Assembly: GCA_040384465.1 (NCBI GenBank)
Contig: JAZKJF010000009.1
Coordinates: 2,129 to 66,128 of the forward strand
Length of the DNA: 64,000 nucleotides
Direction: 5' to 3'
From: Pseudomonadota bacterium
Lineage (GTDB): Bacteria > Pseudomonadota > Gammaproteobacteria > Pseudomonadales > Pseudohongiellaceae
Below the pieces are notes generated by a model, which saw only the letters and a program-made list of their open reading frames with translations, had not been told where the DNA came from and did no database searches. Positions 9,194 to 51,444 of this stretch are shown here, piece by piece. The first letter of the stretch is position 1. Every line of letters starts with the position of its first letter. The position numbers were made by a program, and so were the translations under genes.

Positions 9194-9246
9194 GATTTGG
9201 GGTCAGAGTAAAATACAGACTGTATTTTTACTCTGACCCCAAATCT
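9193..9246. terminator. long hairpin between convergent PfkB-kinase gene and dnaJ (probable bidirectional terminator)
   Basis: agatttggggtcagagtaaaatacag / ctgtatttttactctgaccccaaatct. About a 25-bp stem with one bulged A, 2-nt loop. Confidence 0.7.
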
Positions 9247-9249
9247 CCA

Positions 9250-23679: not shown

Positions 23680-24037
23680 GGGGGCGCTTTGGATTCGACG
23701 CCGGTATCAAACCCTGAGGTGCATGTCGAGAGGGTAGTAACTCTCGTAAATCAATTACTGCAACTTACTAGTTGCCAACGACGATAGCTACGCTCTAGCC
23801 GCTTAGTGCGGTTAGCGGTCACCCCGGGATGCCTGTAAACCGGTGTTTTTGTGACTGTCATATAGAACAGGATCGCCAGCCTAGCGCGCCCAGCGCGAAG
23901 CAGCTAAAAGTACTGGGCTCGCCCGAACCACCCTGCCCGTCGGGCCGGCGAGGGTTAACTTAATAGACGACGCTACACATGTAGATCCAAAGGCAGCGGA
24001 CTGACGGACGGGGGTTCAAATCCCCCCGCCTCCACCA
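23680..24037 (+). ncRNA. ssrA: tmRNA (transfer-messenger RNA)
   Basis: The 5' GGGGGCG pairs with the 3' CGCCUCC-ACCA (G3:U pair retained). The tag ORF GCC AAC GAC GAT AGC TAC GCT CTA GCC GCT TAG (23774-23806) encodes ANDDSYALAA. T-arm is GGTTCAAATCC. Confidence 0.95.
24012..24037 (+). repeat. attL core (tmRNA 3' end)
   Basis: gggttcaaatccccccgcctccacca is identical to 29017-29042. Confidence 0.85.
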
Positions 24038-32324: not shown

Positions 32325-32360
32325 GCGCTACTCACTAACCGCATGGATGTGAAAAGTCTC

Positions 32361-32431
32361 CTGTGGGAGCGGGCCCGCCCACGATTGAATTTAATGTTGT
32401 CATCTATCGCGGGCAGGGCCCGCTCCCACAG
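32361..32431. repeat. REP-like element, family 1 (inverted pair)
   Basis: ctgtgggagcgggcccgcccacga (32361-32384) and tcgcgggcagggcccgctcccacag (32407-32431). Located between convergent genes. Confidence 0.7.
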
Positions 32432-32441
32432 GGCTCGAGAA

Positions 32442-34073: not shown

Positions 34074-34111
34074 GGCAGGGCTCCGGTAGTGAATTGGTTT
34101 TAAAAAAAGGA

Positions 34112-36610: not shown

Positions 36611-36677
36611 TGGAAAAACCCTCTACTGCAAAATAACCATTACCTGGAAAAACCGTTTATTCTTCTTCAATACAACC

Positions 36678-37766: not shown

Positions 37767-40456
37767 AAGTTGAACCGCAGTCCGCCGATGTAGCGCGGTC
37801 CGAATTTTTCAAACTCGATCGGATATGCACTGTCGTCGCCGTAACGACGCGCGCCCCTGTCGGTCAGGTTGACGGCATCCGCGAAGATCTCGAATGTCTC
37901 ACTGACCTGGTAACGAACAGATAGATCAAGCTCGTCGTCGGTATCCCAGAAGATGTCGCCATTGGACGTGGGGCTCATGACGCCATTGACCATGCGGTAT
38001 TCACCGATGGACTGGCCCCATGGCGTGCGGTATTGGTAAGCAAGCCGCACGGTCAGGCCGTATTTTTCGTAAGTAGCCTGCACGTTGTAGACTTCATCCG
38101 AAGTACCCAACACGCTGATGGTGCGCTTGGGCACGCCGTTGATAGCGGCCAGATTGACTTCCGAATCCGTGAACGTCGCGGAGACATTCATGCCGAATCC
38201 CTCCATCCACTCCGGCAGACTCATGCTGCGCACCAGGCGCTCGGCAGAGGCAACATAAGCCAGCTCAACGCCGCTCAGGTTGCCGTCGCCCGCATTGCCG
38301 ACGGCGGATTGTATGTAGCCAGAGCGATCAATACCGCCGACGTCCAGCGTGTCCAGCCCGAAGACATTGGACTGGCTGATCAGCACATCCTTGAGGTCTT
38401 TGTAGAAGAAACCGGCAGAGAAGAAATCACCGGAAGGCATGTACCATTCCAGATAGGCATCCAAACCGGTCTGCTTCTCGGGCTTGGCTTCCGGGTTACC
38501 GCCGGAGATAGTCTGAGTGCTGTCATTGATGGTGAAGTTGGGGCGCAAGTCGTCGTAGTCTGGACGTGAAGCGGACGTAGTCACACCGAAGCGCAATTTC
38601 ACATCCTCATGAATATTCCAGTTCAAATGGGCGCTAGGGTAGACCAGCACTTCATCGTTGGAGACCTCGACCAGCCGCGTCTGTGCCGGTGTAGCACCCA
38701 CTGCCGGGAAAGCCACATACGCTTCGCCAGTATTGTCAATCTGCTCGACACGCGCACCGTAAATCACATCGCCCCAGTCGAACTCACTGGTCGCCATGCT
38801 GTACAGCGCGGTGATGCTTTCGGTGACTTCCCAATAGTTGCCACGGCTGTCCTGCAAGGTGGCCGCGCCGCTGGCGATCTGCTGCTTCATGAAATTCGTG
38901 GTGAAAGACTGGTTGGTGTAGCGGAAGCCGTAATTCAGATCCTGTCCACCGAGATAGCCGGTATCGGTCGCAAAAGTGGCCCAGGTCGGAATCGTGCCTG
39001 TTGTGAAATTGCGCAGGTAGCTTTTCTCACTGGAGCGCTTGGTGCGGTCGGTGTACAGACCACCAAACTCCACTTTGGTCGGTAACCCGAACAACGCCGT
39101 GTCATAGTCGAGGTCGAGTTTGAAGGTATCAGCCGCCGTTTTGTCCGCACCGATCACGTTGTTGATGCTCTGCATCGGGAACTGGAAATCTTCGATATTG
39201 GTGATCTGCGGGCCTTTGGTGCGTGCAGCGGTGACACCACCCGTGCTGTAGAAACGCATGGTGTTCTCATCGCCATCACGGAAGTCGTAATCCACAGTCG
39301 GGCGCAGCGCAAAACTGGATGGGCTTTGGAAAGCGGCTGACACCGGCGTGTTACGACCGTCGTTGGTATTGGTGCGGTTCACGCGCCAGGACACATCCCA
39401 ATCCGACAGCATGTGCTCACCGCCTATAGTGTGACTCATGGCATATTCTTCGCCGTCACGGTAATCGATGCGGGCATTGATACGGGCGCCGTAGACTGTT
39501 CCCTGTGTCGGATTGTTGCCATTGATGTAGGCGGCACTGGTGTAGCCTGCGCCTGCCGCGTTGGTGCCTTGATCCAGACGCACGATGAAGTTGTCGCGCA
39601 GTTCGTCGTCATGGAACATGGTGTTGATGGTGCTGGCGAACACTGTGTTGCTGTCGTCCAGCTTGTAATCAAAGCGCAGTGAAGCAGAATAATTTTCGCG
39701 CGTCAGACGGTAATGTTTGTTTTCGTGTTCGCGGGCAAAGCGCTTGCTCGGATCCACGGTGTTGCCGAGATAGGGATCGGTTTCCCAGTTGTCGGTGGCC
39801 ATTTCACGCTGGTAGTAAGAACCCTGAGCGAGCACGCCCAGCGCGCCGTCCAGCAAGACGTTGGAATAGGTCAGTGCACTGTCGAACTCATCTCCGCCGC
39901 CCAGATCAACCCGGCCCGCGCCGATCTTACCGGTGACTTGCTGGCCGGGATTGTCGAAACCGGTACGAGTCCGGATATCCACATTGCCGGCCACCGTGTT
40001 GCCTGCCATCGACGGCACAATCGCCTTCTCGACAACAATCTGTTTGGCAATCGCAGAGGGAATGTTGTCGAAACGCGAGGCACGGCCTTCGGGGCTGACA
40101 ATGCTCATGCCATCGTAGGACAGCGTAGTCCAGTAGTTAGGGGCTCCGCGCAGGTTGACATAGCGCGCCTGGCCTTGATCGCGCTCGATACCAACGCCGG
40201 GCAAACGGCCGACAGCGAAAGCGATGTTCTGGTCTGGCAGGTTGCCGATGGCATCTGCCGACAGCACGCTGACCAGTGAATCGGAGTTACGTTGCATTTC
40301 CAGAGCTGCGGCAACACTTTCCGCCATCGGGCGGCGCACGCTGACGGTGATTTCTTCGATTTCGCTGCTGCTTGACTGTGCATTTGACTGCGCCTGTGTG
40401 CCCGAACTCAACCCGAGAACGGTGGCTCCCAATAACAAGGTTCTGAATGTGCTCAT
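37763..40456 (-). CDS. TonB-dependent receptor
   Basis: 897 aa. Signal peptide, plug (EEITVS..., YVNLRG) and a 22-strand-barrel-sized C-terminus ending GGLRFNF. Confidence 0.9.
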   Translation of the reverse strand: MSTFRTLLLGATVLGLSSGTQAQSNAQSSSSEIEEITVSVRRPMAESVAAALEMQRNSDSLVSVLSADAIGNLPDQNIAFAVGRLPGVGIERDQGQARYVNLRGAPNYWTTLSYDGMSIVSPEGRASRFDNIPSAIAKQIVVEKAIVPSMAGNTVAGNVDIRTRTGFDNPGQQVTGKIGAGRVDLGGGDEFDSALTYSNVLLDGALGVLAQGSYYQREMATDNWETDPYLGNTVDPSKRFAREHENKHYRLTRENYSASLRFDYKLDDSNTVFASTINTMFHDDELRDNFIVRLDQGTNAAGAGYTSAAYINGNNPTQGTVYGARINARIDYRDGEEYAMSHTIGGEHMLSDWDVSWRVNRTNTNDGRNTPVSAAFQSPSSFALRPTVDYDFRDGDENTMRFYSTGGVTAARTKGPQITNIEDFQFPMQSINNVIGADKTAADTFKLDLDYDTALFGLPTKVEFGGLYTDRTKRSSEKSYLRNFTTGTIPTWATFATDTGYLGGQDLNYGFRYTNQSFTTNFMKQQIASGAATLQDSRGNYWEVTESITALYSMATSEFDWGDVIYGARVEQIDNTGEAYVAFPAVGATPAQTRLVEVSNDEVLVYPSAHLNWNIHEDVKLRFGVTTSASRPDYDDLRPNFTINDSTQTISGGNPEAKPEKQTGLDAYLEWYMPSGDFFSAGFFYKDLKDVLISQSNVFGLDTLDVGGIDRSGYIQSAVGNAGDGNLSGVELAYVASAERLVRSMSLPEWMEGFGMNVSATFTDSEVNLAAINGVPKRTISVLGTSDEVYNVQATYEKYGLTVRLAYQYRTPWGQSIGEYRMVNGVMSPTSNGDIFWDTDDELDLSVRYQVSETFEIFADAVNLTDRGARRYGDDSAYPIEFEKFGPRYIGGLRFNF

Positions 40457-40502
40457 AAGATTTCCTGATTTTCCTGATAGTAGTGTGATGTAATTTTTTT
40501 GA

Positions 40503-41696
40503 TTATTGGTCGTAACTGATTTCGTAGAGAATGCCGCCGTCAGGCCGATTGGAAGGGCCTGTCTGCGATGAGAAATACAAATACTGGAACGTTGGATCGA
40601 AAGCAGGGCCGCAGATTTCTGATGTGTCCTGCCCTGTGATTTTCACCACCGGCAGCACCAGCCTGTTCGGACCCAGCAGGACGATCTGCATGTCACCACC
40701 GTCTTCTGCCACCAGCACATCACCGGAAGCGGTGATGGTGACGTTGTCTACGCCACTCAAATGAGGAGTCGTGGCACTGGCAAAATCGTAGATGACATCA
40801 ATCTGATTGGTGTGAATATCGAAACGCCAGACCCGGTTGTCGCCTTTGGTGGTGAAATACACCAGGCCCTCGGTCCAGGCGATCCCTTCGCCACCATTGA
40901 AATGAGAGGCAGCTGGCACCTGCAGTCTGGTGCGGACTGTCTTTGCTGCAGGGTCCGGCACGTCGTGCCAGACGATGTGGCGTGTGGCACCTTTGGCAAC
41001 CACTTCCGCAATCTGCAGCGTGCCTGCCGAAAGATCGGGCAAGGCGTTGGCAGGAATGAAGCGATAAAAACCGCCATCCGTCTCGTCTTCGGTGAGGTAG
41101 AGGTGGGAATTGACCGGGTCGACTGCTACGGCTTCGTGTTTGAAACGACCAAGCGCCGGCAAGGCAACACCGGGCTTCACACCAAAGGGATCGCACTCCC
41201 AGACAAGACCGCAATCAACCTCCTCGCAGGACAGCCAGGTCTGCCAGGGCGTTTTGCCACCGGCACAATTGTTGTCGGTGCCAGAGAGAATGGAGTAAGC
41301 CGCAGTGGCTTCACCCGCCGCATTGAAGCGCACCGCGCCAACACCACCGCCGCCTTCTGCGATCTGTACTTCGCTGTTGGAGACATAGATCCAGCCGCCA
41401 TCAGGCGTCGCAAAGGTAGCGCCACCATCCGGAGAGTTGTGCCAGCGGTACTCTGATTCAGGCAGCACCACCTGCCCAGAGCGGGCAATGACGCGAGAGC
41501 GAAACCCGGGCAACAACTGCAGACCATTCGCATCGGGAGCGCCCAGTTCACCCAGAGCAGCAGGATTGGCAAAGAGAGGCAGGGTCTGGCTTTCCGTTGC
41601 CAGCAAGGGCTTCCTGACGCCCGCAAGGAGGAACGCGGCAAAACTCAGCGAACCCCAGGCCAGAAATTGGCGACGATCGGTTTTGCATGTCTTCAT
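40503..41696 (-). CDS. PhoX-family (DUF839) phosphatase-like protein, Tat-exported
   Basis: ATG 41696 gives MKTCKTDRRQFLAWGSLSFAAFLLAG, a twin-arginine signal. GTDNNCAGGKTPWQTWLSCEE is the DUF839/PhoX hallmark. Confidence 0.8.
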   Translation of the reverse strand: MKTCKTDRRQFLAWGSLSFAAFLLAGVRKPLLATESQTLPLFANPAALGELGAPDANGLQLLPGFRSRVIARSGQVVLPESEYRWHNSPDGGATFATPDGGWIYVSNSEVQIAEGGGGVGAVRFNAAGEATAAYSILSGTDNNCAGGKTPWQTWLSCEEVDCGLVWECDPFGVKPGVALPALGRFKHEAVAVDPVNSHLYLTEDETDGGFYRFIPANALPDLSAGTLQIAEVVAKGATRHIVWHDVPDPAAKTVRTRLQVPAASHFNGGEGIAWTEGLVYFTTKGDNRVWRFDIHTNQIDVIYDFASATTPHLSGVDNVTITASGDVLVAEDGGDMQIVLLGPNRLVLPVVKITGQDTSEICGPAFDPTFQYLYFSSQTGPSNRPDGGILYEISYDQ

Positions 41697-41810
41697 CTCT
41701 TCAACGACCTTCACGCGTGTGCTCACTCCCAAAGAAAATTGCAATGCCAGCAATCGGGACTCCATTTTTCAGAGCTAACCGATTCGTTGCGGGGAGTTAA
41801 GCACCTGAAT

Positions 41811-41828
41811 GTGAAACCGGGATGACAG
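41811..41828 (-). promoter_or_regulatory. candidate Pho box (PhoB binding site)
   Basis: The minus strand reads CTGTCAT-CCCG-GTTTCAC against the consensus CTGTCAT-NNNN-CTGTCAC. It lies 115-132 nt upstream of the PhoX-like ATG. Confidence 0.4.
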
Positions 41829-41902
41829 CTGCATGGCAGTTGCATTGCAGTTACGTGGCAGCGCGATTGCATCACCCGCCTGAGTCATGGAATAGTGACC
41901 CC

Positions 41903-42901
41903 ATGAGCCACGACCATCACAATCATCACCACAGCCACCCCCCGCATCACGAGCACGAGCACGAGCACGCGCACTCGCATCAGAGGCACTCGCACCACGA
42001 GCACACCCCTGCCAGTTTCGGCAGAGCCTTCGCGATTGGGATCACGCTGAACCTCAGCTTCGTGCTGGTCGAAGCGTTCTATGGCTGGCAGGCGCAATCT
42101 CTCGCACTGCTGGCCGACGCAGCCCACAACCTCAGCGATGTCGGCGGCTTGCTGCTGGCCTGGGCCGCCTATGCCGCTGCCACCTTGCGGCCTGACTCAC
42201 GACACACCTACGGCTGGCGACGTGGCTCGATCCTGGCCAGCTTCACCAACGCAGTGCTGTTGCTGGTGGCAATGGGCTCGCTGGCGTGGGAAGCAGCGCA
42301 ACGCTTCCAATCTCCAATGGCGATAGAGGCGCACACCGTAATGCTGGTGGCGGGCATCGGTGTGCTGATCAACGCCGCGACCGCTTGGTTGTTCATGGCC
42401 GGCAGCAAAAACGATCTGAATATTCGTGGCGCCTTCCTGCACATGGCGGCCGATGCACTGGTCTCGGTGGGTGTGGTGCTGGCGGGAGCGCTGTATCTGT
42501 GGCGCGGCTGGGCCTGGATCGACCCGGTGGTCAGTCTGCTGATTGTGCTGGTGGTTGTGGTGGGGACGTGGTCGCTGTTCCGGCAGTCACTGCATCTGCT
42601 GTTTGATGGCGTACCGGACAACGTGGATCTCGGCAAAGTGCGCCAGTGTCTGCTTGACCTGCCGGGAGTCGTGGATGTGCACGACCTGCACGTCTGGGCA
42701 ATGAGCACCGCTGACAACGCGCTGACCGCACATCTGGTATGTGACGAGACTGTCGACGATCACGATGCTCTGCTAAGGCTCGCCGCCGTACGTCTGCGCG
42801 AGGGCTTTACTATCGAACATGTGTCATTGCAGCGCGAGTCACCGAGCTTTGCTGCGGACTGCCCGGCGAATCAGGGGCCGTGTGCTAACGCACTTCGCTG
42901 A
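41903..42901 (+). CDS. cation diffusion facilitator (CzcD/ZitB-like) metal efflux transporter
   Basis: His-rich N-terminus MSHDHHNHHHSHPPHHEHEHEHAHSH, six TM segments, HxxxD motifs (AAHNLSD, HMAADA) and a C-terminal cytoplasmic domain. Confidence 0.9.
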   Translation: MSHDHHNHHHSHPPHHEHEHEHAHSHQRHSHHEHTPASFGRAFAIGITLNLSFVLVEAFYGWQAQSLALLADAAHNLSDVGGLLLAWAAYAAATLRPDSRHTYGWRRGSILASFTNAVLLLVAMGSLAWEAAQRFQSPMAIEAHTVMLVAGIGVLINAATAWLFMAGSKNDLNIRGAFLHMAADALVSVGVVLAGALYLWRGWAWIDPVVSLLIVLVVVVGTWSLFRQSLHLLFDGVPDNVDLGKVRQCLLDLPGVVDVHDLHVWAMSTADNALTAHLVCDETVDDHDALLRLAAVRLREGFTIEHVSLQRESPSFAADCPANQGPCANALR

Positions 42902-42964
42902 TCAAATACCCTTGACTGTATCGCAAAGGAGATACAATATTCGCAAAGAATAGAGGATTTGATC

Positions 42965-43243
42965 ATGGCCAACACCACGATGCTACACGTCCGAGTGGAC
43001 GATGACGTTAAAACGCAAGCAAGTGAAGCACTGGCAGCCATGGGGCTGACAGTGTCAGATGCTGTGCGCATCCTGCTCAAGCGTGTGGTCGACGATCAGG
43101 CTTTTCCGTTGGAGCTCAAAGTCCCCAACGCCCAGACCCGTTCTGCCATGGAAGAGGCACGCTCGATGATGAAAGCCCGTGCCGCCCGTTTCGAATCTGC
43201 GGACGCCCTGCTCAATGACCTCGAAAAAACCAACCAGCAGTAG
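42965..43243 (+). CDS. dinJ: RelB/DinJ family antitoxin
   Basis: MANTTMLHVRVDDDVKTQASEALAAMGLTVSDAVRILLKRVV is a ribbon-helix-helix DinJ pattern. ATG 42965 follows AGAGGA. Confidence 0.85.
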   Translation: MANTTMLHVRVDDDVKTQASEALAAMGLTVSDAVRILLKRVVDDQAFPLELKVPNAQTRSAMEEARSMMKARAARFESADALLNDLEKTNQQ

Positions 43244-43535
43244 ACGCGCCAGCCCACCCAAGGCGTGCGACTACACAAAATTCTTCCTCAAGGACTGGGA
43301 GCGCCTCTTTCGCTCTGGCCGCTACGATATGGAGCGAATGAAAGAAGCGATGCTGTTACTCATCGCCAACGATGCTCCGCTCGGCCTCGAATGGCTTGAT
43401 CACGCACTCAAAGGTGCGTGGTCTGATCACCGCGAATGCCACATTGGCGGAGACTTCTTGTTGATCTATCGACTGGAAGGAAATTCAATCACGTTCGTGC
43501 GCGCTGGTACGCACTGCGACTTATTTGAGCAATAG
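43215..43535 (+). CDS. yafQ: YafQ-family (RelE superfamily) mRNA interferase toxin
   Basis: DYTKFFLKDWERL...LDHALKGAWSDHRECHIGGDFLLIYRLEGNSITFVRAGTHCDLF parallels E. coli YafQ. The start is uncertain: ATG 43215 overlaps dinJ by 29 nt and has no clear RBS. Confidence 0.7.
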   Translation: MTSKKPTSSRRASPPKACDYTKFFLKDWERLFRSGRYDMERMKEAMLLLIANDAPLGLEWLDHALKGAWSDHRECHIGGDFLLIYRLEGNSITFVRAGTHCDLFEQ

Positions 43536-43566
43536 TCGCAGTGCTGTCATTCTTCATTTGCTGCCA

Positions 43567-43959
43567 TCAGGTCGGATTATTCGAGCTGTTGTTTGAAGAA
43601 CCTTTCAGCGCATCGCGCAGCCCCGCAAAAGGATTGTGCGTCGCGGCCTGTTTCTTGTTCTCTGTGGTACCGCCGTAGCGGATGAAGTTGGCGAACTTGC
43701 TGTGCTCCTCGTCGTGACAGTAGAGGCACAGCAGCTCCCAGTTGCTGCCATCGACTGGATTGCAGTCGTGATCATGATTGACGTGATGCACCGTCAACTC
43801 GCGCAGGTTCGCCCGTGTAAACTCCCGCGCACAGCGCCCGCAGATCCACGGATACAGCTTCAACGCCTGTTCGCGATAACCCCGCTCGCGTTCCGCGATG
43901 TAGCGCCGTTGTGCGTCCAGCGCCTTGTCGGCGGCGGTGCCTTTGTCTGTTCCGGCCAT
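43567..43959 (-). CDS. yajD: YajD family HNH nuclease
   Basis: GYREQALKLYPWICGRCAREF...LRELTVHHVNHDHDCNPVDGSNWELLCLYCHDEEH aligns closely with E. coli YajD as I recall it. Confidence 0.85.
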   Translation of the reverse strand: MAGTDKGTAADKALDAQRRYIAERERGYREQALKLYPWICGRCAREFTRANLRELTVHHVNHDHDCNPVDGSNWELLCLYCHDEEHSKFANFIRYGGTTENKKQAATHNPFAGLRDALKGSSNNSSNNPT

Positions 43960-44167
43960 ATTCTCTTACCTCATGCTCTTCACACTGGGCGTCATTGCTT
44001 AATCACTTCTCCCAGCAACATGGGTTTCGCCGTGTTATCGACTGCCTGGATTATGGTCCACTTGATGGAATAGCTCCAGCCTTGTGGATAACCCTATCAG
44101 TTGACATTCCCCCACCCTCCCCCGAAACTCCGGACATCCTGATTTTTACCGGACGCCAGACACTCCC

Positions 44168-45901
44168 ATGGACTACTACACCCGGAACGCCAGCGATCTG
44201 TTCCGACAATACAGTTCACTGAACCCCGCCGACGTGCATCGCGGCTGGCTCGATTTGCTGCCTGCACAAGCCGGCCTCGCATGCGACATCGGCGCAGGCA
44301 GCGGGCGCGATGCCGCCTGGCTGGCCAGCAAGGGCTGGGATGTCATTGCCGTGGAACCCAACGCCGAGCTGCGCGCACTGGGTGAGCAGCACACCATCAG
44401 CGCCGCCGCCAACTCCAGCACTGCCATTGGTGGCGTCACATGGCTCGACGACGCGTTGCCGGAATTGAAGCAACTGCGCTCGCTGGATCAACGCTTCCAG
44501 CTCATTCTGATCAGCGCCGTATGGATGCATCTGACGCCTGTGCAACACGAGCGCGCCATGCGCATCGTCAGCGAACTTCTCACGCCCGGCGGCATGCTGG
44601 TGATTTCCCTGCGACTCGGACCAGACGTCGCCGGACGGTTTCATCCCATCTGCGCGGATGAGTTGATTCGCCTGGCACAGGATCGCGCGCTTGTGAACAA
44701 AAGACGTTTCCGCGGAAACGACTTGCGGCGTGAGGAGGTCGAGTGGGATACAGTGGTGTTTACATTGCCGGACGATGGCACGGGAAGTCTGCCGTTGCTG
44801 CGGCACATCATCGTCAATGACAACAAAGCGGCGTCGTACAAACTCGGTCTGTTGCGTGTGCTGATTCGCATCGCCGAAGGTGCGCCGGGCATGGTGACAA
44901 AGCGCAGCGACGACTGGGTAGAGATTCCATTCGGGCTGGTCGGGCTGTACTGGCTGAAGACCTATATGCCGCTCGTGCTGCGTCATAATCTGATTCAAAC
45001 ACCCGCTGCCAATCACGCGACCCAAAGTGGTTACGGTTGGGCAAAGCACGAACACTTTTACAGTCTGCAGGACCTCTCAGCTTATGACCTTCGCGTCGGC
45101 GCATCGTTCGACGCCAATGTTGCCCCACGTCTCGTCGGCGCTATTCGCGATGCCTGCATCAACATCAAGAAGATGCCAGCTCACTACATCACCTATCCAG
45201 GCGAAAACCGCCAAGTGTTTGAGTGTGAGACGAACACAGTCAGGCATGGCTCTACACCATGGCAGATCACTCGCGAAAGCCTGCGACAATTTGGTACTTT
45301 CCGCATCCCCGCAGCGCTATGGCAATGCTTCAGCCAATACGCCTGCTGGCTGGAGCCAGCCATCTTCAATGAATGGGTGAAGCTGATGCAAACCTGGAAC
45401 TTCCAGTACGACACCAACGTATACAGCGGCGCATTTCAGTGGATAGACGCCAAACGCGATACAACAAAAGTCAGTGAGCGCATCAAGCAACTGCACAATC
45501 AAGGACAACACGTTGAATGCGTGTGGACCCACAAGAGGCTAATCATCGCCAACGAAAAGTACGCCGTCGATCACTGCTTCCCATGGTCACGCTGGCTCAA
45601 CAATGACCTCTGGAATCTGATGCCTGCTACGACAAGCGCCAACAATTCCAAGAGTGACAAATTGCCATCAGCGGGTTTGCTTCAGCATTCGCGCGATCAC
45701 ATTATTCATTGGTGGGAGCAGGCATATATTGAGAGTGAATTATTGCGACAGAAGTTCTTCATTGAAGCGGAAGCAGCATTGCCACTCATCGCAACTGGAA
45801 GCACGGACATTGATGCAGTGTTTCATGCGATGCAACATCAACGGGCGAAATTGAAGGCCAGTCAGCAGTTGGCTGAGTGGAGTATTGCGCCTACAATCTG
45901 A
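44168..45901 (+). CDS. fusion protein: N-terminal class I SAM-dependent methyltransferase + central unknown domain + C-terminal HNH/His-Me nuclease
   Basis: 577 aa. Motif I is ACDIGAGSGRDAAWLASKGWDVIAVEP. The post-I region is LILISAVWMHL...GGMLVISL. The central region contains ASYKLGLLRVLIRIAEG. The C-terminal YAVDHCFPWSRWLNNDLWNLMPATTSANNSKSDKLP (about 45560-45680) is HNH-like. Confidence 0.7.
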   Translation: MDYYTRNASDLFRQYSSLNPADVHRGWLDLLPAQAGLACDIGAGSGRDAAWLASKGWDVIAVEPNAELRALGEQHTISAAANSSTAIGGVTWLDDALPELKQLRSLDQRFQLILISAVWMHLTPVQHERAMRIVSELLTPGGMLVISLRLGPDVAGRFHPICADELIRLAQDRALVNKRRFRGNDLRREEVEWDTVVFTLPDDGTGSLPLLRHIIVNDNKAASYKLGLLRVLIRIAEGAPGMVTKRSDDWVEIPFGLVGLYWLKTYMPLVLRHNLIQTPAANHATQSGYGWAKHEHFYSLQDLSAYDLRVGASFDANVAPRLVGAIRDACINIKKMPAHYITYPGENRQVFECETNTVRHGSTPWQITRESLRQFGTFRIPAALWQCFSQYACWLEPAIFNEWVKLMQTWNFQYDTNVYSGAFQWIDAKRDTTKVSERIKQLHNQGQHVECVWTHKRLIIANEKYAVDHCFPWSRWLNNDLWNLMPATTSANNSKSDKLPSAGLLQHSRDHIIHWWEQAYIESELLRQKFFIEAEAALPLIATGSTDIDAVFHAMQHQRAKLKASQQLAEWSIAPTI

Positions 45902-45929
45902 GACAAAAATATCACTGCATTAACCACAA

Positions 45930-46707
45930 TTCATAGCCAAAGCTTTTCAAATACGTGTTCGCGATGAAACACCAAGAAGTCAGAATGTGGCAGAAATTTC
46001 TCAGGTTTAGCAATCTGCTTCCCTTCATAATTTTTAACCGCACTCATGTAAAAGAAGTCACTATCACTGAATCCCTTGCCGGAAACTCGCACGGTGAAGT
46101 CGTCACGGATTGTAATAAGACCAAGATCAAAGGCTTTATCATGGAGAGCAGAAAGAGCAAGCCCATTCGCAGGATTTTTCCTATTAGCAGAATCTTAAAC
46201 CCAAGGGACTATGTGGCTTGCAACCAGAAGTTTTTGCACAGAAAGCCCGCTTATGCAGCACTTGAAGTCGTATGCAGTTAGCACAGCATTTCTAAAAAAG
46301 TCTTGCCCCCTTCTTGCCGTGCACTGCACTATCCTGTTCTCTCCTGTGTAGTCCATTTCGTCCAATGCCAGCGGCATCGCGTACAAAGAGCTGTCTTTAA
46401 GAACATCTTCAACTGCTTCGCCAGAACTTTGCTCGAAGGCATTCCAGTCGGATTGCATTCCCTTCCACATACTTTTGTCAGGGTTTGATGCCCCAGCAAG
46501 CCCTTTGCGCCCCGTTGACGTTATCTGAGGGTCAAGACTAGCAATGTTTGTAAGCTTCATTGCCAGTGCCGAAGGAGTTCTACCTAGTAATTCCGCAAAC
46601 TTGATTATCTGAGGATTTCGCGAGTGCATCTTTCCGAATGGAATTTGGCAATAAAGCCAAAATGCCACCAGCAGCTGCTGACGGGTCCAGGCATTTGAGG
46701 CAGACAT
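45930..46707 (-). pseudogene. COG3183-type HNH restriction endonuclease gene interrupted by an in-frame TAA
   Basis: The 170-aa ORF ends ...CCISGLSVQKLLVASHIVPWV-TAA (46195-46197). The same frame continues DSANRKNPANGLALSALHDKAFDLGLITIRDDF... to the TGA at 45930-45932. The HNH core is therefore split by a single nonsense codon. Confidence 0.75.
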
Positions 46708-46807
46708 TAGCTACTCCTTAGGTACCTTTCTGCGTTGTAGCACACAAAGCAAGATAGAGTTCGATGACCGAATTTTTACAGTATGCTTTTAGATACTCGA
46801 CTTTGCC

Positions 46808-47581
46808 TCAACCCAACTTCTGAACCGCCCTGCACTTTGGATAACCCGTACATCCCCAGAATTTTTCACCCATATTAGGTCCAGACTTTGTCACTCGAAT
46901 TATCAGGGCGCTCCCACATCGAGGACAAAGCCGATGAGCAGATTCGTCCAATCTCTGCTGCAGTCTTTGCACATGATCTTGATGTGTTGCATAGGTCTGT
47001 GCCAATCGCTGTGTCTGTAGAACATCGATCATCTGCACGACCTGATCATCGCTGAATACGGGGGTGGTGAAGGATCTTATGAACCGGATACCACCACCAG
47101 CATGCCGCACATTGTCGGGCATGGCAGTTTTCAGCGTTGCTGAGCCAACGAATATCACCAGCGAATGAATTGTCTCAATTGGCAGGGTGAGCGCAGACTC
47201 AACGGCTTTCACATGCTTGAAGTTCTGCCGCAATGGATTCTGAAATTTTGCGGTAGCTCTATAGATTTTCTGCGTCCATTGCGGCTGATCTTCTGAACCA
47301 AATATCCAACCCTTCATATTTTTAGTTTCTACAATAAAAATACCAAAGCGTGATACGACGATATGATCTATCTGCGTAGTCCCATCTGGGGTCGGCAGCG
47401 TGATGTTGTGGAGTTGATGGTAAATTGATTTATCGAGAGACCATTTGAATCTCAAACGCACCATCAGCTCGCCAAGCCAACCTTTGACGAACGGCACTTT
47501 GAATGCGCTGATAAGAATTGCGAGAGGGAAAAGCCACCAAAGCGAGAGCAGTCTATTGAGCAGAATCTGCGGAACATCCAT
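46808..47581 (-). CDS. NERD (nuclease-related domain) protein with C-terminal topoisomerase-type C4 zinc ribbon
   Basis: 257 aa. N-terminal TM segment, then the NERD core (GELMV...DHIVVSRFGIFIVETKN). The C-terminus is CPRCGSALIIRV...FWGCTGYPKCR. AT-rich (20/60 GC in line 47281, counted by hand). Confidence 0.8.
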   Translation of the reverse strand: MDVPQILLNRLLSLWWLFPLAILISAFKVPFVKGWLGELMVRLRFKWSLDKSIYHQLHNITLPTPDGTTQIDHIVVSRFGIFIVETKNMKGWIFGSEDQPQWTQKIYRATAKFQNPLRQNFKHVKAVESALTLPIETIHSLVIFVGSATLKTAMPDNVRHAGGGIRFIRSFTTPVFSDDQVVQMIDVLQTQRLAQTYATHQDHVQRLQQRLDESAHRLCPRCGSALIIRVTKSGPNMGEKFWGCTGYPKCRAVQKLG

Positions 47582-47695
47582 TGTTTAACTTCCATTTGAT
47601 GAACTTGCGTTGGTATGGTGGCCAAGTGTAAAAAGACCCTGCTGCCGAATAGGTCCACTAAGCCAGAATAACTCACCCTTTACAAGGAGCCCCCC

Positions 47696-48127
47696 ATGCC
47701 CATCTGGACCCGCCCCCTCACCCTAGAACTCATCACCGCCACCACCCGCGACACCGCCGTGCACAACCTCGGCATCGAGTTCACGGAGATCGGTGACGAC
47801 TATCTGTGCGGCCGCATGCCGGTGGATGCGCGCACGGTGCAGCCGCGTGGCATTTTGCATGGCGGGGCGTCGGTGTTGCTGGCCGAGACGCTGGGCAGCA
47901 TCGCGGCCAACTACTGTCTGCGCGGAGAGCATCAGGCGGCGGTAGGGCTGGAGATCAATGCGAACCATGTGCGCTCTGTGGCGTCGGGCTGGGTGACGGG
48001 CACCGCGCGGCCGATGCATATCGGCGGCAGTACGCAGGTGTGGGAGATTCGTATCGAGAATGACGAGGGCAAGCTGACGTGCATCTCGCGGATCACGATG
48101 GCGGTGATCACGTTACCGTCTGTCTAG
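47696..48127 (+). CDS. PaaI/YdiI-type hotdog-fold thioesterase
   Basis: MPVDARTVQPRGILHGGASVLLAETLGS and GGSTQVWEIRIENDEGKL parallel E. coli YdiI/EntH. Confidence 0.85.
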   Translation: MPIWTRPLTLELITATTRDTAVHNLGIEFTEIGDDYLCGRMPVDARTVQPRGILHGGASVLLAETLGSIAANYCLRGEHQAAVGLEINANHVRSVASGWVTGTARPMHIGGSTQVWEIRIENDEGKLTCISRITMAVITLPSV

Positions 48128-49443: not shown

Positions 49444-51444
49444 TCAGTAGATGAAGCCTTCGCCGTAGCTCAGATCAATCGCAGTCGGGCTCTGCTCACC
49501 AGCTTTTGTGCCGTCGAGATAGAAACCCAGACCTGTGGGCAACGCATCGGCTGTTTCGCCATTGGTGTTGTAGTCGCCGTACGCGTAGTAGCTGGTAATC
49601 TGCAGACCGCCTTTGATGACGACGCCCAACAGATCTGTGTCAGCATCGATGAACTGGTTCTGTGTGACCAGTGCGGCCAGCAGGTCTTCGATGATCAGGT
49701 CCAGATCACGCACTTCCGGATCGAAATCCATTTTGACAGTGTAGTAGCCGTCGCCGCCGTTCGGCTTCACGTCGCCTGCTGTCTCTTCAAACACCAGCGT
49801 GAAGTGGGAGATGTCCTGAGCCCATGCCTTGAAATCATTGCCGACAGGAGTGACAACCGGTGGCTGCACTGGCGGTTGAACGGGCGGTTGCACTGGTGGC
49901 AACACTGGGGGCAGAACCGGTGAACCCTGGCCGTTGACCGTGAAGCTCACAATCGCGGAAGAGGAAGCACCGTGGTTATCCGTCATGCTGTATTCGAAGG
50001 ACAGATTTACAGATTCGCCATCGTTCAAACCGTTGTAGGCAGTGCCTGCATCGTAAGACCATGAGCCGTCAGCATTGAACACCAGGGATCCTTTGGCGGC
50101 ATTGCCATTCGCATCCACGAAGGAGTTTGCAGTCAGTGCCCAGACGTGCGTGTCCAGGTGATCCACATCCGAGTCATTGCCAGTCACGCTGGCAGAAATC
50201 ACACCACCTTCGTTGATTGCGGCGTGCACGTCATTCAGTGCGACCGGGCCATCGTTTTGTCCGTTCACAGCGAAGCTCACTGTCGCAGTAGAAGTCGCAC
50301 CGTTGTTGTCTGTCATGCTGTAGTCGAAAGACAGCGTGGCGGTCTCGCCTTCGCTCAGGTATTCAAACGCAGAACCTGCGTCGTATGACCATGTGCCGTC
50401 AGTGTTGAACACCAGAGAGCCTGGCGCTGCACTGCCATTGGCGTCCACGAAAGAGCCTGCGTTCAGTGCCCAGCTGTGGGTGTCCAGACGATCCACATCG
50501 GAATCGTTGGCAGTCACAGAAGCACCGACAATCACGTCGCCTTCGCTGATAGCGGCTTGCACGTCATCCAGTGCCACCGGGCCATCGTTGGCGCCATTGA
50601 TCACGACAGTGAAAGTAGAAGTATCTGTGCTGTAGTCACCGGCTTCGGCGCCTGCGCTCTTGACGTCAATGCTGTAGGTGCGGGTGATGGACTCACCAGC
50701 AGAAAGTTGATCGGCGTCTGTGCCATTGACGGCAACAGTCCACTGACCATTGCTGCCGAGCGTGACGGAACCCACTACCAGGGCGTCGGCATCATTGGTC
50801 ACCAGCGCTACCGCTGAACCCACTGCACCGCCGCTCCAGGAAGTCACGCTGTTAGTGTTGCCCGAGGCACCTGTGTCATTGCCGAAAAGGCTGCCGGAGG
50901 CGCTGTTGTTCTCGACCACAACGCCGCTGGCGTCATCAATCGCGTTGATCGCAGAAGAAGTGGTTTCGATGACTTTGGAAGAACCACTGCGGCTGCCACC
51001 TAACGCGCCCACAGAAGTCAGACGCACACCGAATTCAACATTGGCGAAGTCTTCCAGGGTCAGGGCACGAGTGCTGCTGGTGAGGTTGAATTCGTAGCTG
51101 CGGATGTCGTCTTTGCCCACACCGGCGGTGCCAATCTTGATACCGGCATCAAAGCCTTTGCCGCTGCCAGTCAAGCCGTTCATGTTGGTGCCTTCGCCCA
51201 GATCCTTGACGGCATCCAGGCCTTGACGGAAACCGGTGTTAGCCGTGGTGGTGGTGAGGCTGCCGACCAGGCTCTTGTCCTTGAGATCGAAGAACAGACC
51301 GCGCAGGTCACCGATAATCGCGCCTTCCTGGCTGACACTGAAACTCAGACTGCCGTTGGCAGACTCAGTGATCGTGACACGTACCTGTGGGTTAGTGCTG
51401 TCAGTTGCTGCGTCGTTAATCAGAAAACTCATTGAGCGGGCCAT
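49444..51444 (-). CDS. large VCBS/cadherin-like repeat protein (putative secreted adhesin)
   Basis: 666 aa. Two tandem repeats of about 111 aa (NDGPVAL[D/N]DV...TANDSDVD.LDTH.WAL...GSLVFN.DG.WSYDAG...). These are followed by a (L/V)PPV(Q) proline linker and a C-terminal domain of about 140 aa. Confidence 0.75.
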   Translation of the reverse strand: MARSMSFLINDAATDSTNPQVRVTITESANGSLSFSVSQEGAIIGDLRGLFFDLKDKSLVGSLTTTTANTGFRQGLDAVKDLGEGTNMNGLTGSGKGFDAGIKIGTAGVGKDDIRSYEFNLTSSTRALTLEDFANVEFGVRLTSVGALGGSRSGSSKVIETTSSAINAIDDASGVVVENNSASGSLFGNDTGASGNTNSVTSWSGGAVGSAVALVTNDADALVVGSVTLGSNGQWTVAVNGTDADQLSAGESITRTYSIDVKSAGAEAGDYSTDTSTFTVVINGANDGPVALDDVQAAISEGDVIVGASVTANDSDVDRLDTHSWALNAGSFVDANGSAAPGSLVFNTDGTWSYDAGSAFEYLSEGETATLSFDYSMTDNNGATSTATVSFAVNGQNDGPVALNDVHAAINEGGVISASVTGNDSDVDHLDTHVWALTANSFVDANGNAAKGSLVFNADGSWSYDAGTAYNGLNDGESVNLSFEYSMTDNHGASSSAIVSFTVNGQGSPVLPPVLPPVQPPVQPPVQPPVVTPVGNDFKAWAQDISHFTLVFEETAGDVKPNGGDGYYTVKMDFDPEVRDLDLIIEDLLAALVTQNQFIDADTDLLGVVIKGGLQITSYYAYGDYNTNGETADALPTGLGFYLDGTKAGEQSPTAIDLSYGEGFIY

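What the first reader, a model, noticed from the sequence alone, without database searches (positions are those of the whole stretch)
44168..45901. Single 577-aa polypeptide fusing a small-molecule-type SAM methyltransferase to an HNH nuclease via an unknown central domain
- The N-terminal ~200 aa carry class I methyltransferase motifs (DIGAGSGRDAAWLASKGWDVIAVEP; GGMLVISL). I could not find DNA-methyltransferase motifs such as (D/N)PP(Y/F).
- The C-terminal ~110 aa carry a His-Me/HNH core (YAVDHCFPWS...NDLWNLMPATTSANNSKSDK).
- The ~250-aa middle part (LPLLRHIIVNDNKAASYKLGLLRVLIRIAEG...) matches nothing I recognise and could be a nucleic-acid-sensing winged helix.
- I do not know a characterised system with this architecture.
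- It sits in an accessory islet beside two other nuclease genes.
- GC drops along the gene by hand count: 42/60 at line 44221 versus 24/60 at line 45721. That suggests a chimeric origin of the HNH end.
- It is a candidate one-protein self/non-self discrimination or modification-dependent restriction/defence module.
Basis: partly seen in the sequence, partly recalled or inferred. Interest (0 to 1): 0.72.

Follow-up and report, generated by a model that had tools for sequence, protein, structure and literature searches.

The report
Uncharacterised methyltransferase–HNH nuclease fusion protein
The gene is real and encodes a three-part protein (a small-molecule-type methyltransferase, a domain with no known relatives, and a Cas9-type DNA-cutting domain) belonging to a widespread but unstudied family that often sits next to restriction enzymes, so it is a good though unproven candidate for a new kind of DNA-defence enzyme.

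Summary
The ORF at 44168-45901 (+) is intact and encodes 577 aa.

**Domains**
- aa 1-199: a class I SAM methyltransferase of the TehB/UbiG/NodS small-molecule type. It has no DNA-methyltransferase motif.
- aa 200-445: a well-predicted domain with no Pfam, PDB or viral-structure match.
- aa 446-505: an HNH_4 (Cas9-type) nuclease core, followed by a helical tail.

**Not a one-off or a recent chimera**
- Full-length relatives occur in at least 587 species across several phyla and on plasmids.
- SAM-binding and HNH catalytic residues are each kept in at least 96% of 171 members.
- The middle-domain+HNH module also exists alone (about 385 aa, more than 1000 proteins, mostly cyanobacterial plasmids).
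- The methyltransferase also exists alone or fused to a GNAT.

**Context**
- There is no universal partner gene.
- In 17 of 80 loci the gene forms a tight operon with a SauUSI-type type IV restriction enzyme. A further locus has the two genes adjacent but divergent.
- Other neighbours include Dcm, HNH_2 (a relative of phosphorothioate-DNA restriction enzymes), NERD and NOV_C.
- In the window's lineage the gene is backbone and its two flanks are variable cargo slots.

**Verdict**
- The GC fall is real but shared by the whole clade.
- Best reading: a restriction-type DNA endonuclease coupled to an active methyltransferase whose acceptor is unknown.
- The family is uncharacterised. I class it as a new variant of a known kind.

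The parts
44168..45901 (+). Complete CDS, 577 aa plus stop: methyltransferase, unknown domain X, HNH nuclease
   Evidence: 100% identical database entry P0001 and more than 120 full-length homologues.
44168..44764 (+). aa 1-199: class I SAM-dependent methyltransferase domain, TehB/UbiG/NodS-like small-molecule type
   Evidence: Pfam. Foldseek against PDB: NodS, RPA2492, UbiG, TehB at E about 1e-7, TM-target about 0.7. Profile against PDB sequences: TehB best at 9e-7. Stand-alone homologues of 39-47% identity share its invariant residues.
44279..44311 (+). aa 38-48: SAM-binding motif I, ACDIGAGSGRD
   Evidence: D40, G42 and G46 kept in at least 96% of 171 members, and G44 in about 90%. The E63 acidic post-I residue is E or D in 99%.
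44765..44992 (+). aa 200-275: LPDDGTG linker plus the first subdomain of X (helix, helix, beta-hairpin, helix). This is the most conserved segment of the protein.
   Evidence: Mean top-residue frequency 0.78, against 0.64 for HNH and 0.57 for the methyltransferase. K225 is 100% conserved, D218 99%, Y224 98%. Secondary structure from AF2 models.
44993..45502 (+). aa 276-445: rest of domain X, mixed alpha/beta, no known homologue
   Evidence: AF2 pLDDT mostly 80-97. No hit in Pfam at E<=1. Foldseek PDB and BFVD found nothing for this part.
45503..45682 (+). aa 446-505: HNH_4 (Cas9-type) beta-beta-alpha-metal nuclease core, YAVDHCFPWSRWLNNDLWNLMPATTSANNSKSDKLPS
   Evidence: Pfam HNH_4 2.7e-8. NCBIfam and PADLOC Cas9 HNH segments. 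Foldseek: Cas9 HNH domains, probability 0.9.
45569..45574 (+). Codons for D468-H469, the HNH catalytic Asp-His pair (matching Cas9 D839/H840 from my own knowledge)
   Evidence: D468 in 169/171 and H469 in 167/171. N483 in 169/171 and N492 in 168/171.
45683..45898 (+). aa 506-577: C-terminal helical extension after the HNH core
   Evidence: AF2 helices 502-566. Conserved W515, W516, Q558-R559, E570-W571.
45932..46707 (-). Context: HNH_2 restriction-endonuclease-like gene convergent with the target, disrupted by an in-frame TAA at 46195-46197 (pseudogene or sequencing error)
   Evidence: The C-terminal part hits NF045808 'phosphorothioated DNA-binding restriction endonuclease' at 2.9e-12, below that model's cut-off. 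HNH_2 genes also flank relatives in Haliea and cyanobacteria.
46808..47581 (-). Context: NERD nuclease domain plus topoisomerase-type zinc-ribbon protein, part of the 1.7-kb low-GC cargo islet
   Evidence: Pfam NERD 1e-31 and Zn_ribbon_Top1 5.5e-10. Absent at this position in L002 and L003.
43567..43959 (-). Context: YajD-family HNH nuclease, a conserved backbone gene and not islet cargo
   Evidence: NCBIfam NF008448 1e-50, above its cut-off. 87-89% nucleotide identity in L001 and L002.

Best explanation
The gene encodes a self-contained DNA endonuclease of restriction/defence type.

**Nuclease module.** It is a conserved two-part unit: unknown domain X plus a Cas9-type HNH. This unit also exists on its own in other bacteria. 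The extremely conserved first subdomain of X (aa 200-275, a helix-helix-hairpin with invariant Y224, K225 and R230) most likely holds the nucleic acid. Because it does not vary between relatives, it probably recognises a constant feature, such as a modification, a structure or the backbone, and not a variable sequence. HNH then nicks or cuts.

**Methyltransferase.** In this branch of the family a catalytically competent, small-molecule-type SAM methyltransferase has been welded to the N-terminus through a conserved LPDDGTG linker. It is kept under the same selection as the nuclease, so methyl transfer (or at least SAM binding) is coupled to nuclease function.

**Favoured reading.** The protein guards against foreign, probably modified, DNA alongside type IV restriction enzymes. 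In this reading the methyltransferase sets or gates nuclease activity. I do not think it is a classical base-specific DNA methylase.

**Shown:** the architecture, the conservation of both active sites, the autonomy of the X-HNH module, the operon linkage to a SauUSI homologue in some lineages, and the absence from phages.

**Inferred:** DNA as substrate, a defence role, and the nature of the methyl acceptor.
For: - Both catalytic centres are under purifying selection. Motif I and the HNH D-H...N...N are each kept in at least 96% of 171 full-length members down to about 30% identity. Only 5 members lose the methyltransferase motif and 5 depart from the HNH residues, one of them by a single N492H change.
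- The AF2 full-length model has pLDDT 87 and pTM 0.88, which indicates a compact, integrated protein.
- X-HNH is an independent evolutionary unit. About 385-aa proteins begin exactly at domain X (26% identity, E 1e-21). There are more than 1000 of them, mostly on cyanobacterial plasmids.
- Restriction-type neighbours recur in independent lineages.
  - A SauUSI homologue (PDB 7clg 1e-85; PLD + ResIII + DUF3427) is adjacent in 18 of 80 loci.
  - In 17 of these it is on the same strand and abutting or overlapping, in three different gene orders.
  - Dcm occupies the same slot in other Marinobacter.
  - Other neighbours are HNH_2 relatives of the PT-DNA restriction enzyme, and NOV_C, SLFN helicase and NERD.
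  - In cyanobacteria the neighbours are type III-B CRISPR and a NucS-like nuclease.
- In the window's own lineage both flanks of the gene are cargo slots. They hold NERD plus the HNH_2 pseudogene, Dcm, MNT/HEPN (PDC-M05), a DUF5131-like (phage Gp37/Gp68-type) gene with a three-Cys-motif partner (TcmP)-like gene (my reading of the sequences, not a library hit), or nothing.
- The family is present on conjugative and other plasmids and in several phyla at about 48% identity, which points to horizontal transfer.
- It is absent from 50,697 phage genomes, and a motif-seeded scan of 2.9 million viral contigs found no relative, which fits a host-side function.
- aa 200-275 is the most conserved region.
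Against: - No experiment exists for any member.
- There is no universal partner gene and no hit to any PADLOC defence model beyond generic domain matches.
- In some clades the neighbours are ordinary metabolic or stress genes: esterase, glyoxalase, FMN oxidoreductase, SDR, UxuA.
- The gene is stably retained at one chromosomal position within Marinobacter and within the window's lineage. That is less typical of defence genes and could mean it is merely the conserved edge of an insertion hotspot.
- The methyltransferase clade has stand-alone and GNAT-fused members with the same active-site residues. This suggests a small-molecule acceptor unrelated to DNA.
- The winged-helix assignment for X has no structural-search support.
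Confidence: 0.45

Rival explanations
1. It is a single-chain restriction-modification enzyme, analogous to type IIG. The N-terminal methyltransferase methylates host DNA at the feature recognised by X. HNH then cleaves DNA that lacks this mark.
For: - The methyltransferase and the nuclease sit in one polypeptide, and both active sites are conserved together.
- Restriction-type neighbours recur.
- pTM 0.88 suggests the domains act as one unit.
Against: - The methyltransferase has no amino-methyltransferase or C5 motif IV in any of 171 members.
- It matches only small-molecule methyltransferases by sequence and by fold.
- Homologues with the same active site work alone or fused to a GNAT.
- The X-HNH module lives without any methyltransferase in more than 1000 proteins. 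It is therefore not intrinsically dependent on protective methylation.
- X is the most conserved part of the protein, unlike the variable target-recognition domains of R-M enzymes.
Confidence: 0.17
2. It is a SAM-gated or metabolite-gated nuclease. The methyltransferase domain works mainly as a sensor of SAM (or of a small methyl acceptor). Depletion of SAM, for example by phage SAM-degrading enzymes, or appearance of a ligand, switches the X-HNH nuclease on or off.
For: - The methyltransferase is of the small-molecule type, and the same domain is reused with other effectors, such as the GNAT fusion.
- X-HNH is autonomous elsewhere, so the methyltransferase is an add-on.
- The conserved LPDDGTG linker and the high pTM fit allosteric coupling.
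Against: - Residues on the acceptor side, after strand 4 (W119, M120, H121) and R149, are about 95% conserved. That points to real catalysis and not only SAM binding.
- I know of no precedent. There is no direct evidence.
Confidence: 0.15
3. It is a housekeeping or stress-response enzyme, for example in processing of damaged or alkylated nucleic acid or in a xenobiotic response. It merely borders an insertion hotspot, so restriction genes next to it say nothing about its own role.
For: - It is a backbone gene in four related genomes while its flanks vary.
- It is syntenic in many Marinobacter with the downstream FMN oxidoreductase, SDR and c10.
- Some clades have esterase, glyoxalase, Macro, MazG, NUDIX, dGTPase or ImuB/UmuD neighbours.
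Against: - It has 4-bp overlaps or gaps of 33 bp or less with the SauUSI homologue, in three different gene orders. That is hard to explain by hotspot adjacency alone.
- Its distribution is patchy across phyla and it is carried on plasmids.
- The methyltransferase-less branch sits in cyanobacterial plasmid defence clusters.
Confidence: 0.15
4. It is one subunit of a two-component system with the SauUSI-like PLD-helicase-DUF3427 protein, playing a Mod-like partner to a Res-like motor nuclease. On this view the copy in this window is an orphan left after loss of the partner.
For: - Tight operons in 17 loci from Marinobacter, Halieaceae and a Pseudomonadales MAG, with permuted gene order.
- The window's locus shows gene decay next door: the HNH_2 pseudogene.
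Against: - 62 of 80 loci lack the partner nearby, including the window and all of its close relatives, yet both active sites stay intact.
- Plasmid copies are solitary.
Confidence: 0.08

Closest known systems
Type IV modification-dependent HNH restriction enzymes with an N-terminal reader domain (ScoMcrA/SprMcrA SBD-(SRA)-HNH, TagI SRA-HNH, VcaM4I EVE-HNH)
   Same: Both have a reader/binding domain followed by a C-terminal HNH nuclease in one chain. Both are solitary genes without a cognate DNA methylase and sit in restriction-rich neighbourhoods. Relatives of the SBD-HNH enzyme are direct neighbours of the X-HNH module in cyanobacteria and, as a pseudogene, in this window.
   Different: Domain X matches none of the known readers (SRA, EVE/PUA, SBD, DUF3427, DpnI-type winged helix) by Pfam or Foldseek. 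The HNH is of the HNH_4 (Cas9) type and not HNH/HNH_2. None of the known enzymes carries a methyltransferase.
Single-chain R-M enzymes (type IIG/IIL such as MmeI and Eco57I; type ISP LlaGI)
   Same: Methyltransferase and nuclease in one polypeptide, together with a recognition region.
   Different: Those use gamma-class N6-adenine DNA methyltransferases with an NPPY/DPPY motif and PD-(D/E)XK or Mrr nucleases. Here the methyltransferase is TehB/UbiG-like without that motif, and the nuclease is HNH.
TehB / UbiG / NodS-type class I small-molecule methyltransferases
   Same: Same Rossmann fold and motif pattern. These are the best sequence and structure matches for aa 1-199.
   Different: Only about 15-20% identity. 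NCBIfam equivalog cut-offs are missed by far: 28 bits against 218 for TehB. None of those enzymes is fused to a nuclease.
Cas9 HNH domain (Pfam HNH_4)
   Same: Same HNH subtype and the same D-H...N...N catalytic pattern.
   Different: There is no RuvC domain, REC lobe, guide RNA or CRISPR array. The similarity is limited to about 60-90 residues.
SauUSI (PLD nuclease - SF2 helicase - DUF3427 type IV restriction enzyme)
   Same: It is not a homologue of the target. It is the target's most frequent operon partner: adjacent in 18 of 80 loci and operonic in 17.
   Different: It is a separate protein and is absent from this window.

Membership tests
Class I SAM-dependent methyltransferase superfamily (Pfam Methyltransf_23/11/12/25) | Rossmann-fold methyltransferase with motif I (D/E-x-G-x-G-x-G) and an acidic residue after strand 2 | tested here: met
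   Four Pfam models score above their gathering scores. DIGAGSG plus E63 are conserved. The fold matches at E about 1e-7.
TehB tellurite-resistance methyltransferase (equivalog) | Score above the NCBIfam equivalog cut-off (218 bits), or a clear Pfam TehB membership | tested here: not met
   NCBIfam gives 28 bits against a cut-off of 218. Pfam TehB gives 21.0 bits against 20.4, which is only borderline.
DNA amino- or C5-methyltransferases (as in R-M systems, including type IIG) | Catalytic motif IV, (D/N/S)PP(Y/F/W) or PCQ, and a hit to N6_Mtase, N6_N4_Mtase, MethyltransfD12 or DNA_methylase models | tested here: not met
   Neither motif is in the query, and no [DNS]PP[YFWH] is in the first 230 aa of any of 171 relatives. 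No such Pfam or NCBIfam hit at E<=1.
HNH / His-Me finger nucleases, subtype HNH_4 | Beta-beta-alpha-metal core with catalytic His and metal-binding Asn/Asp | tested here: met
   HNH_4 scores 34.1 bits against a cut-off of 22. D468, H469, N483 and N492 are kept in at least 97% of the family. The predicted strand-strand-helix is at aa 465-495.
Type IV modification-dependent restriction enzymes (reader + nuclease) | A recognised modified-DNA reader domain (SRA, EVE/PUA, SBD, DUF3427, DpnI-type winged helix) | tested here: not met
   No Pfam or NCBIfam hit in aa 200-445. Foldseek against PDB and BFVD found no match for that part.
Type IV modification-dependent restriction enzymes (reader + nuclease) | Cleavage only of modified DNA | not testable with these tools
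   This needs in vitro digestion of modified and unmodified DNA.
MADS (methylation-associated defence system), component mad2 | An eight-gene mad operon, with mad2 as its DNA methylase | tested here: not met
   The PADLOC mad2 hit (4e-11) covers only the generic Rossmann core, aa 17-151. The MADS HMMs were built from broad HHpred alignments. No other mad genes are near the target.
Type II CRISPR Cas9 | RuvC domain, REC lobe and an adjacent CRISPR array with cas1/cas2 | tested here: not met
   Only the HNH segment matches (21 bits against 100). The neighbouring genes are unrelated.
X-HNH module family (unnamed; defined here) | About 245-aa domain X with an N-terminal (N/H)D.K..(S/T)YK(L/I).LLR motif, directly followed by HNH_4 and a helical tail | tested here: met
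   aa 200-577 finds 1314 50%-identity clusters at E<=1e-3. It aligns from the first residue of the cyanobacterial 387-aa proteins.

The most novel reading that the evidence does not exclude
The N-terminal domain is a methyltransferase of non-DNA-methylase ancestry. It puts a previously unknown mark on nucleic acid held by domain X, and HNH cleavage is coupled to that mark.

Possible acceptors include:
- a soft nucleophile such as a phosphorothioate sulfur;
- a backbone phosphate;
- the side chain of a hypermodified phage base.

This would be a new class of single-chain 'mark-and-cut' (or mark-to-protect) enzyme, built on a new DNA-binding fold.

Weak hints:
- The methyltransferase has TehB-like (S/Se/Te-methylating) affinity.
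- A stand-alone homologue lies beside a complete SspABCD-FGH phosphorothioation system.
- Relatives of the PT-DNA restriction enzyme lie next to X-HNH genes.
Probability: 0.13. Interest if true: 0.85.

Novelty: new variant of a known kind. Interest (0 to 1): 0.55.

Why it matters
**What it would add if the defence reading holds**
- A compact single-gene nuclease system present in hundreds of marine and soil species.
- A roughly 245-residue nucleic-acid-binding domain with no known structural relative.
- The first case of a small-molecule-type SAM methyltransferase wired to a restriction nuclease.

**Questions it opens**
- How can nuclease activity be licensed by SAM chemistry without a classical DNA methylase?
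- Why does the gene form operons with SauUSI-type enzymes that attack methylated cytosine?

**Practical points**
- The methyltransferase-less X-HNH branch (more than 1000 proteins) is equally unstudied.
- The HNH is of the Cas9 subtype, and the protein is small and predicted with high confidence, so structural and biochemical work is straightforward.
- If it proves to be a housekeeping enzyme, its value is mainly better annotation of a large 'methyltransferase domain-containing protein' family.

Tried and rejected
1. **Recent chimera at the HNH end: rejected.** The GC gradient is shared by L001-L008. The family-wide mean N-minus-C GC difference is only 0.028. Nucleotide identity to the ~90% relatives is uniform along the gene.
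2. **Two ORFs fused by a sequencing error: rejected.** Homologue lengths rule it out.
3. **Known defence system: rejected.**
   - PADLOC gave only generic methyltransferase (mad2) and Cas9-HNH hits.
   - The mad2 hit is explained by the broad way the MADS HMMs were built.
4. **Identifying domain X: failed.**
   - Pfam at E<=1 on the window protein, on divergent members and on cyanobacterial homologues found nothing.
   - NCBIfam, PHROGs and a profile search of PDB sequences found nothing.
   - Foldseek of a dedicated 378-aa model against PDB and BFVD returned only the HNH part, at E 0.1-0.3.
I could not inspect inter-domain geometry, PAE or the four conserved cysteines.
5. **A metal cluster from invariant C330, C393, C451 and C470: dropped.** Divergent members lack some of these cysteines.
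6. **Phage origin: rejected.** One 43-residue HNH-only hit in the phage genomes; the motif-seeded scan of IMG/VR found no relative.
7. **A universal partner gene: none found.** All-against-all clustering of ORFs in 80 loci found none.
8. **Small ORFs as shared partners: rejected.**
   - The small ORFs upstream of the cyanobacterial X-HNH genes are not homologous to each other.
   - A different small ORF of the Anabaena-type cassette is not homologous to the 150-aa ORF next to the Sphingomonas methyltransferase.
9. **A consistent phosphorothioation link: not found.** Full-length plasmid copies have no dnd or ssp genes nearby. This stays a weak lead only.
10. **Literature: nothing.** Searches for the architecture found no paper.
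11. **PADLOC census of neighbours: uninformative.** Redundant Dcm models filled the table.
12. **Census limitations.**
    - My ORF calling in the neighbour census was a crude longest-ORF method and produced some spurious calls, such as c13 and c43.
    - The neighbour counts are not corrected for phylogenetic relatedness. Marinobacter supplies many of the loci.
Full report
**1. The observation**

The window has one uninterrupted ORF at 44168-45901 (+) that encodes 577 aa.

| Region | Finding |
|---|---|
| aa 36-153 | Methyltransf_23/11/12/25 and, at borderline score, TehB |
| aa 460-500 | HNH_4, above its gathering score |
| HNH stretch | Cas9 HNH segments in NCBIfam and PADLOC |
| aa 200-445 | Nothing in Pfam, NCBIfam, PADLOC or PHROGs |

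- GC falls from 0.65 to 0.48 across the gene and stays low to about 47.6 kb.
- There is no (D/N/S)PP(Y/F/W) or PCQ motif.

**2. Not a private oddity**

- A protein search returned an identical entry and more than 120 full-length relatives of 53-94% identity, all about 570 aa with the same Pfam pattern. They are annotated only as 'methyltransferase domain-containing protein'.
They include Marinobacter, Halieaceae, Pseudohongiella, Ectothiorhodospiraceae, Latescibacterota and Gemmatimonadota.
- Copies of 37-41% identity lie on Azospirillum, Roseomonas, Sphingobium, Pseudoalteromonas and Sinorhizobium plasmids or chromids.
- The sequencing-error and recent-fusion ideas are therefore excluded.
- The N-to-C GC gradient is real, but the whole Pseudohongiella-like clade (L001-L008) shares it. 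The family-wide mean difference is only 0.028.
- Nucleotide identity to the ~90% relatives is flat along the gene.

**3. Anatomy**

*Conservation*
- In an alignment of 37 homologues all three parts are conserved.
- In 171 full-length members down to about 30% identity:
  - D40, G42, G46, E63 and D95 are kept in at least 96%, and G44 in about 90%.
  - The acceptor-side W119, M120, H121 and R149 are kept in about 92-96%.
  - HNH D468, H469, N483 and N492 are kept in at least 97%.
- Both enzymatic centres are therefore under selection.
- The most conserved stretch is neither of these. It is aa 200-275: the LPDDGTG linker and the first subdomain of X, with K225 at 100% and D218 at 99%.

*Structure prediction*
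- AlphaFold2 gave a confident, compact full-length model with pLDDT 87 and pTM 0.88.
- Foldseek matched the N-terminal domain to small-molecule methyltransferases (NodS, RPA2492, UbiG, TehB) at E about 1e-7.
- A profile search of PDB sequences put TehB first, at 9e-7.
- A separate model of aa 200-577 had pLDDT 84.5. It matched only Cas9 and phage HNH domains at E of about 0.1 or weaker.
- Nothing in PDB or BFVD matched domain X.
- X is predicted to start helix (207-216), helix (222-238), beta-hairpin (about 244-254), helix (255-272). That is compatible with a winged-helix-like DNA binder but is unconfirmed.

**4. Modular origin**

*The nuclease half*
- tblastn on plasmids found about 385-aa 'HNH endonuclease domain-containing' proteins in Tolypothrix, Nostoc and Leptolyngbya. 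They align with the target from the first residue of X to past the HNH (26% identity, E 1e-21).
- This methyltransferase-less branch has more than 1000 members.

*The methyltransferase half*
- About 200-aa stand-alone methyltransferases of 39-47% identity share the domain's invariant residues.
- One sits next to clpB in Azospirillum.
- One lies beside a complete SspABCD-FGH phosphorothioation locus on a Sphingomonas plasmid.
- In Streptomyces the same domain is fused to a GNAT acetyltransferase.

The protein is thus an old fusion of two autonomous units. Short hits in the representative search look like gene fragments.

**5. Genomic context**

*Census of 80 loci*
- Clustering the ORFs found no universal partner.
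- The commonest neighbour, in 18 loci, is a roughly 1040-aa PLD + ResIII helicase + DUF3427 protein. It is a clear SauUSI homologue (PDB 7clg, 1.2e-85).
- In 17 of the 18 it is on the same strand as the target, with a gap of 33 bp or less or a short overlap of the called ORFs.
- Three gene orders occur: partner then target; target, NUDIX, partner; and target then partner. That is operon-like linkage and not mere island proximity.
- In other Marinobacter the same upstream slot holds an E. coli-type Dcm on the opposite strand.
- Among 136 other immediate neighbours Pfam found:
  - restriction-type and related domains: DNA_methylase (5), NOV_C (4), HNH_2 (3), NUDIX (3), SLFN helicase (2), NERD (2), Macro (2);
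  - lineage-specific metabolic genes.
- In some clades the neighbours are an esterase and a glyoxalase.

*Methyltransferase-less branch*
- In Nostocales-type plasmid loci (Anabaena-type and Tolypothrix) an HNH_2 gene lies next to X-HNH on the opposite strand. That gene matches the NCBIfam 'phosphorothioated DNA-binding restriction endonuclease' model over its full length (1e-37, below the cut-off).
- In Leptolyngbya the X-HNH gene instead lies near type III-B CRISPR and NucS-like genes.

*The window's own lineage*
- YajD (43567-43959), the target and the thioesterase (47696-48127) are backbone genes.
- The slot downstream of the target holds, in the four related genomes:
  - NERD plus an HNH_2 pseudogene (the window);
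  - nothing (L002, which keeps a roughly 50-nt remnant);
  - a DUF5131-like (phage Gp37/Gp68-type) gene plus a three-Cys-motif partner (TcmP)-like gene (L003);
  - Dcm (L001).
- The L003 and L001 cargo names above are my reading of the sequences, not library hits.
- The upstream slot holds FtsH-like and MNT/HEPN (PDC-M05) genes in L001 and L002.

*Phages*
- No relative was found in the phage genomes, apart from one 43-residue HNH-only hit, or in a motif-seeded scan of IMG/VR contigs.

**6. Interpretation**

*What the evidence shows*
- An active-looking HNH_4 nuclease.
- An active-looking small-molecule-type methyltransferase.
- A new, highly conserved middle domain.
- Autonomy of the X-HNH unit.
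- Recurrent and sometimes operonic linkage with type IV restriction genes.

*What I infer (confidence about 0.45)*
- This is a restriction/defence-type DNA endonuclease.
- Its invariant X-N subdomain recognises a constant nucleic-acid feature.
- The fused methyltransferase couples nuclease function to SAM chemistry.

*Against a classical single-chain R-M enzyme*
- The DNA-methyltransferase motifs are missing.
- Homologues with the same active site are stand-alone or fused to a GNAT.
- X-HNH exists without any methyltransferase.
- X lacks the variability expected of a target-recognition domain.

*Rivals still open*
- A SAM- or ligand-gated nuclease.
- A housekeeping or stress enzyme that merely borders an insertion hotspot.
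- An orphaned subunit of a two-gene system with the SauUSI homologue.

*Most novel reading not excluded*
- A new nucleic-acid mark made by a methyltransferase of non-DNA-methylase ancestry. The phosphorothioate-related hints are weak and inconsistent.

**7. Comparison and novelty**

- The nearest known kinds are type IV reader-HNH enzymes and type IIG single-chain R-M enzymes.
- The protein fails the defining tests of both. It has no known reader domain and no DNA-methyltransferase motif.
- It is not a member of MADS, Cas9 or the TehB equivalog.
- Literature searches found no description of the family.
- I class it as a new variant of a known kind: a multidomain restriction-type nuclease.
- The finding is worth experimental follow-up. 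Function remains inferred, and candidate defence genes of this sort are common, so interest is moderate.

Noticed in passing
window 45932-46707 (-): This is an HNH_2 restriction-endonuclease-like gene of 258 codons, convergent with the target and 30 bp from its stop. It is split by an in-frame TAA at 46195-46197. The C-terminal part matches NCBIfam 'phosphorothioated DNA-binding restriction endonuclease' at 2.9e-12. The + strand ORF 45955-46281 that overlaps it is probably spurious. L002 keeps about 50 nt of its 3' end, so the islet was probably deleted there and not inserted here.
   Followed up: partly
L030, L031, L036, L037, L039, L053-L055, L074 and others (Marinobacter, Halieaceae); for example L054:4858-7989 then 7986-9668: A SauUSI homologue (PLD + helicase + DUF3427; PDB 7clg 1e-85) forms tight operons with the methyltransferase-X-HNH gene in three gene orders. 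In Halieaceae a NUDIX gene sometimes sits between them. In other Marinobacter (L043, L047, L050, L051) the same slot holds an E. coli-type Dcm on the opposite strand.
   Followed up: partly
L084:4330-7631 and L081:5807-8185 (Anabaena/Nostoc/Tolypothrix plasmids): This is a conserved cassette: a divergent HNH_2 gene (a full-length relative of the PT-DNA restriction enzyme, 1e-37), then ORFs of 85 aa and 151 aa, the 387-aa methyltransferase-less X-HNH, and a 135-aa ORF. The small ORFs have no Pfam match. GmrSD_N fragments, an AcrVA2-like gene and a group II intron lie nearby.
   Followed up: partly
L095 (Sphingomonas sp. CL5.1 plasmid pTSSC1, record 31685-47820): A stand-alone homologue of the target's methyltransferase domain (39% identity) forms a two-gene operon with a 150-aa unknown protein. 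This operon is divergent from a complete sspABCD plus FtsK-domain (SspFGH/DndFGH-like) phosphorothioation-restriction locus. AbiE lies on the other side.
   Followed up: partly
L092:3947-5077 (Streptomyces sp. NBC_00984 plasmid): The same methyltransferase family (47% identity to aa 4-175) is fused to a C-terminal GNAT acetyltransferase. This suggests a small-molecule or amine-type substrate for this methyltransferase clade.
   Followed up: no
window 43960-44167 and 45902-47695, compared with L001-L003: Both flanks of the target are variable cargo slots in ~90%-identical genomes. Upstream, L001 and L002 carry an FtsH-like AAA protease and MNT/HEPN (PADLOC candidate PDC-M05). Downstream, the genomes carry Dcm (L001), a DUF5131-like (phage Gp37/Gp68-type) gene plus a three-Cys-motif partner (TcmP)-like gene (L003), nothing (L002), or NERD plus the HNH_2 pseudogene (window). 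The Dcm, FtsH-like and L003 names are my reading of the sequences, not library hits.
   Followed up: yes
window 23680-24037 (+): A tmRNA gene with tag peptide ANDDSYALAA. tmRNA genes are common island-integration sites. I did not examine the 20 kb between it and the target for island boundaries.
   Followed up: no
window 46808-47581 (-): A NERD nuclease domain fused to a topoisomerase-I-type C4 zinc ribbon. It matches PHROG 21557 (unknown function) over its full length at 8e-32. Its NERD part weakly resembles the N-termini of the MADS6 and PglW kinases.
   Followed up: no
window 49444-51444 (-): A 666-aa protein with cadherin-like/Big_9 repeats, probably a surface adhesin. It is unrelated to the finding.
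   Followed up: no
L101:6471-6995 and L096:9776-11239: In an uncultured gammaproteobacterium a Macro-domain gene is inserted 5 bp upstream of the target orthologue. In Pseudoalteromonas a dGTPase gene lies directly downstream, on the opposite strand, and a 713-aa NERD protein lies two genes further on. These are further nucleotide- or ADP-ribose-related neighbours of unclear meaning.
   Followed up: no
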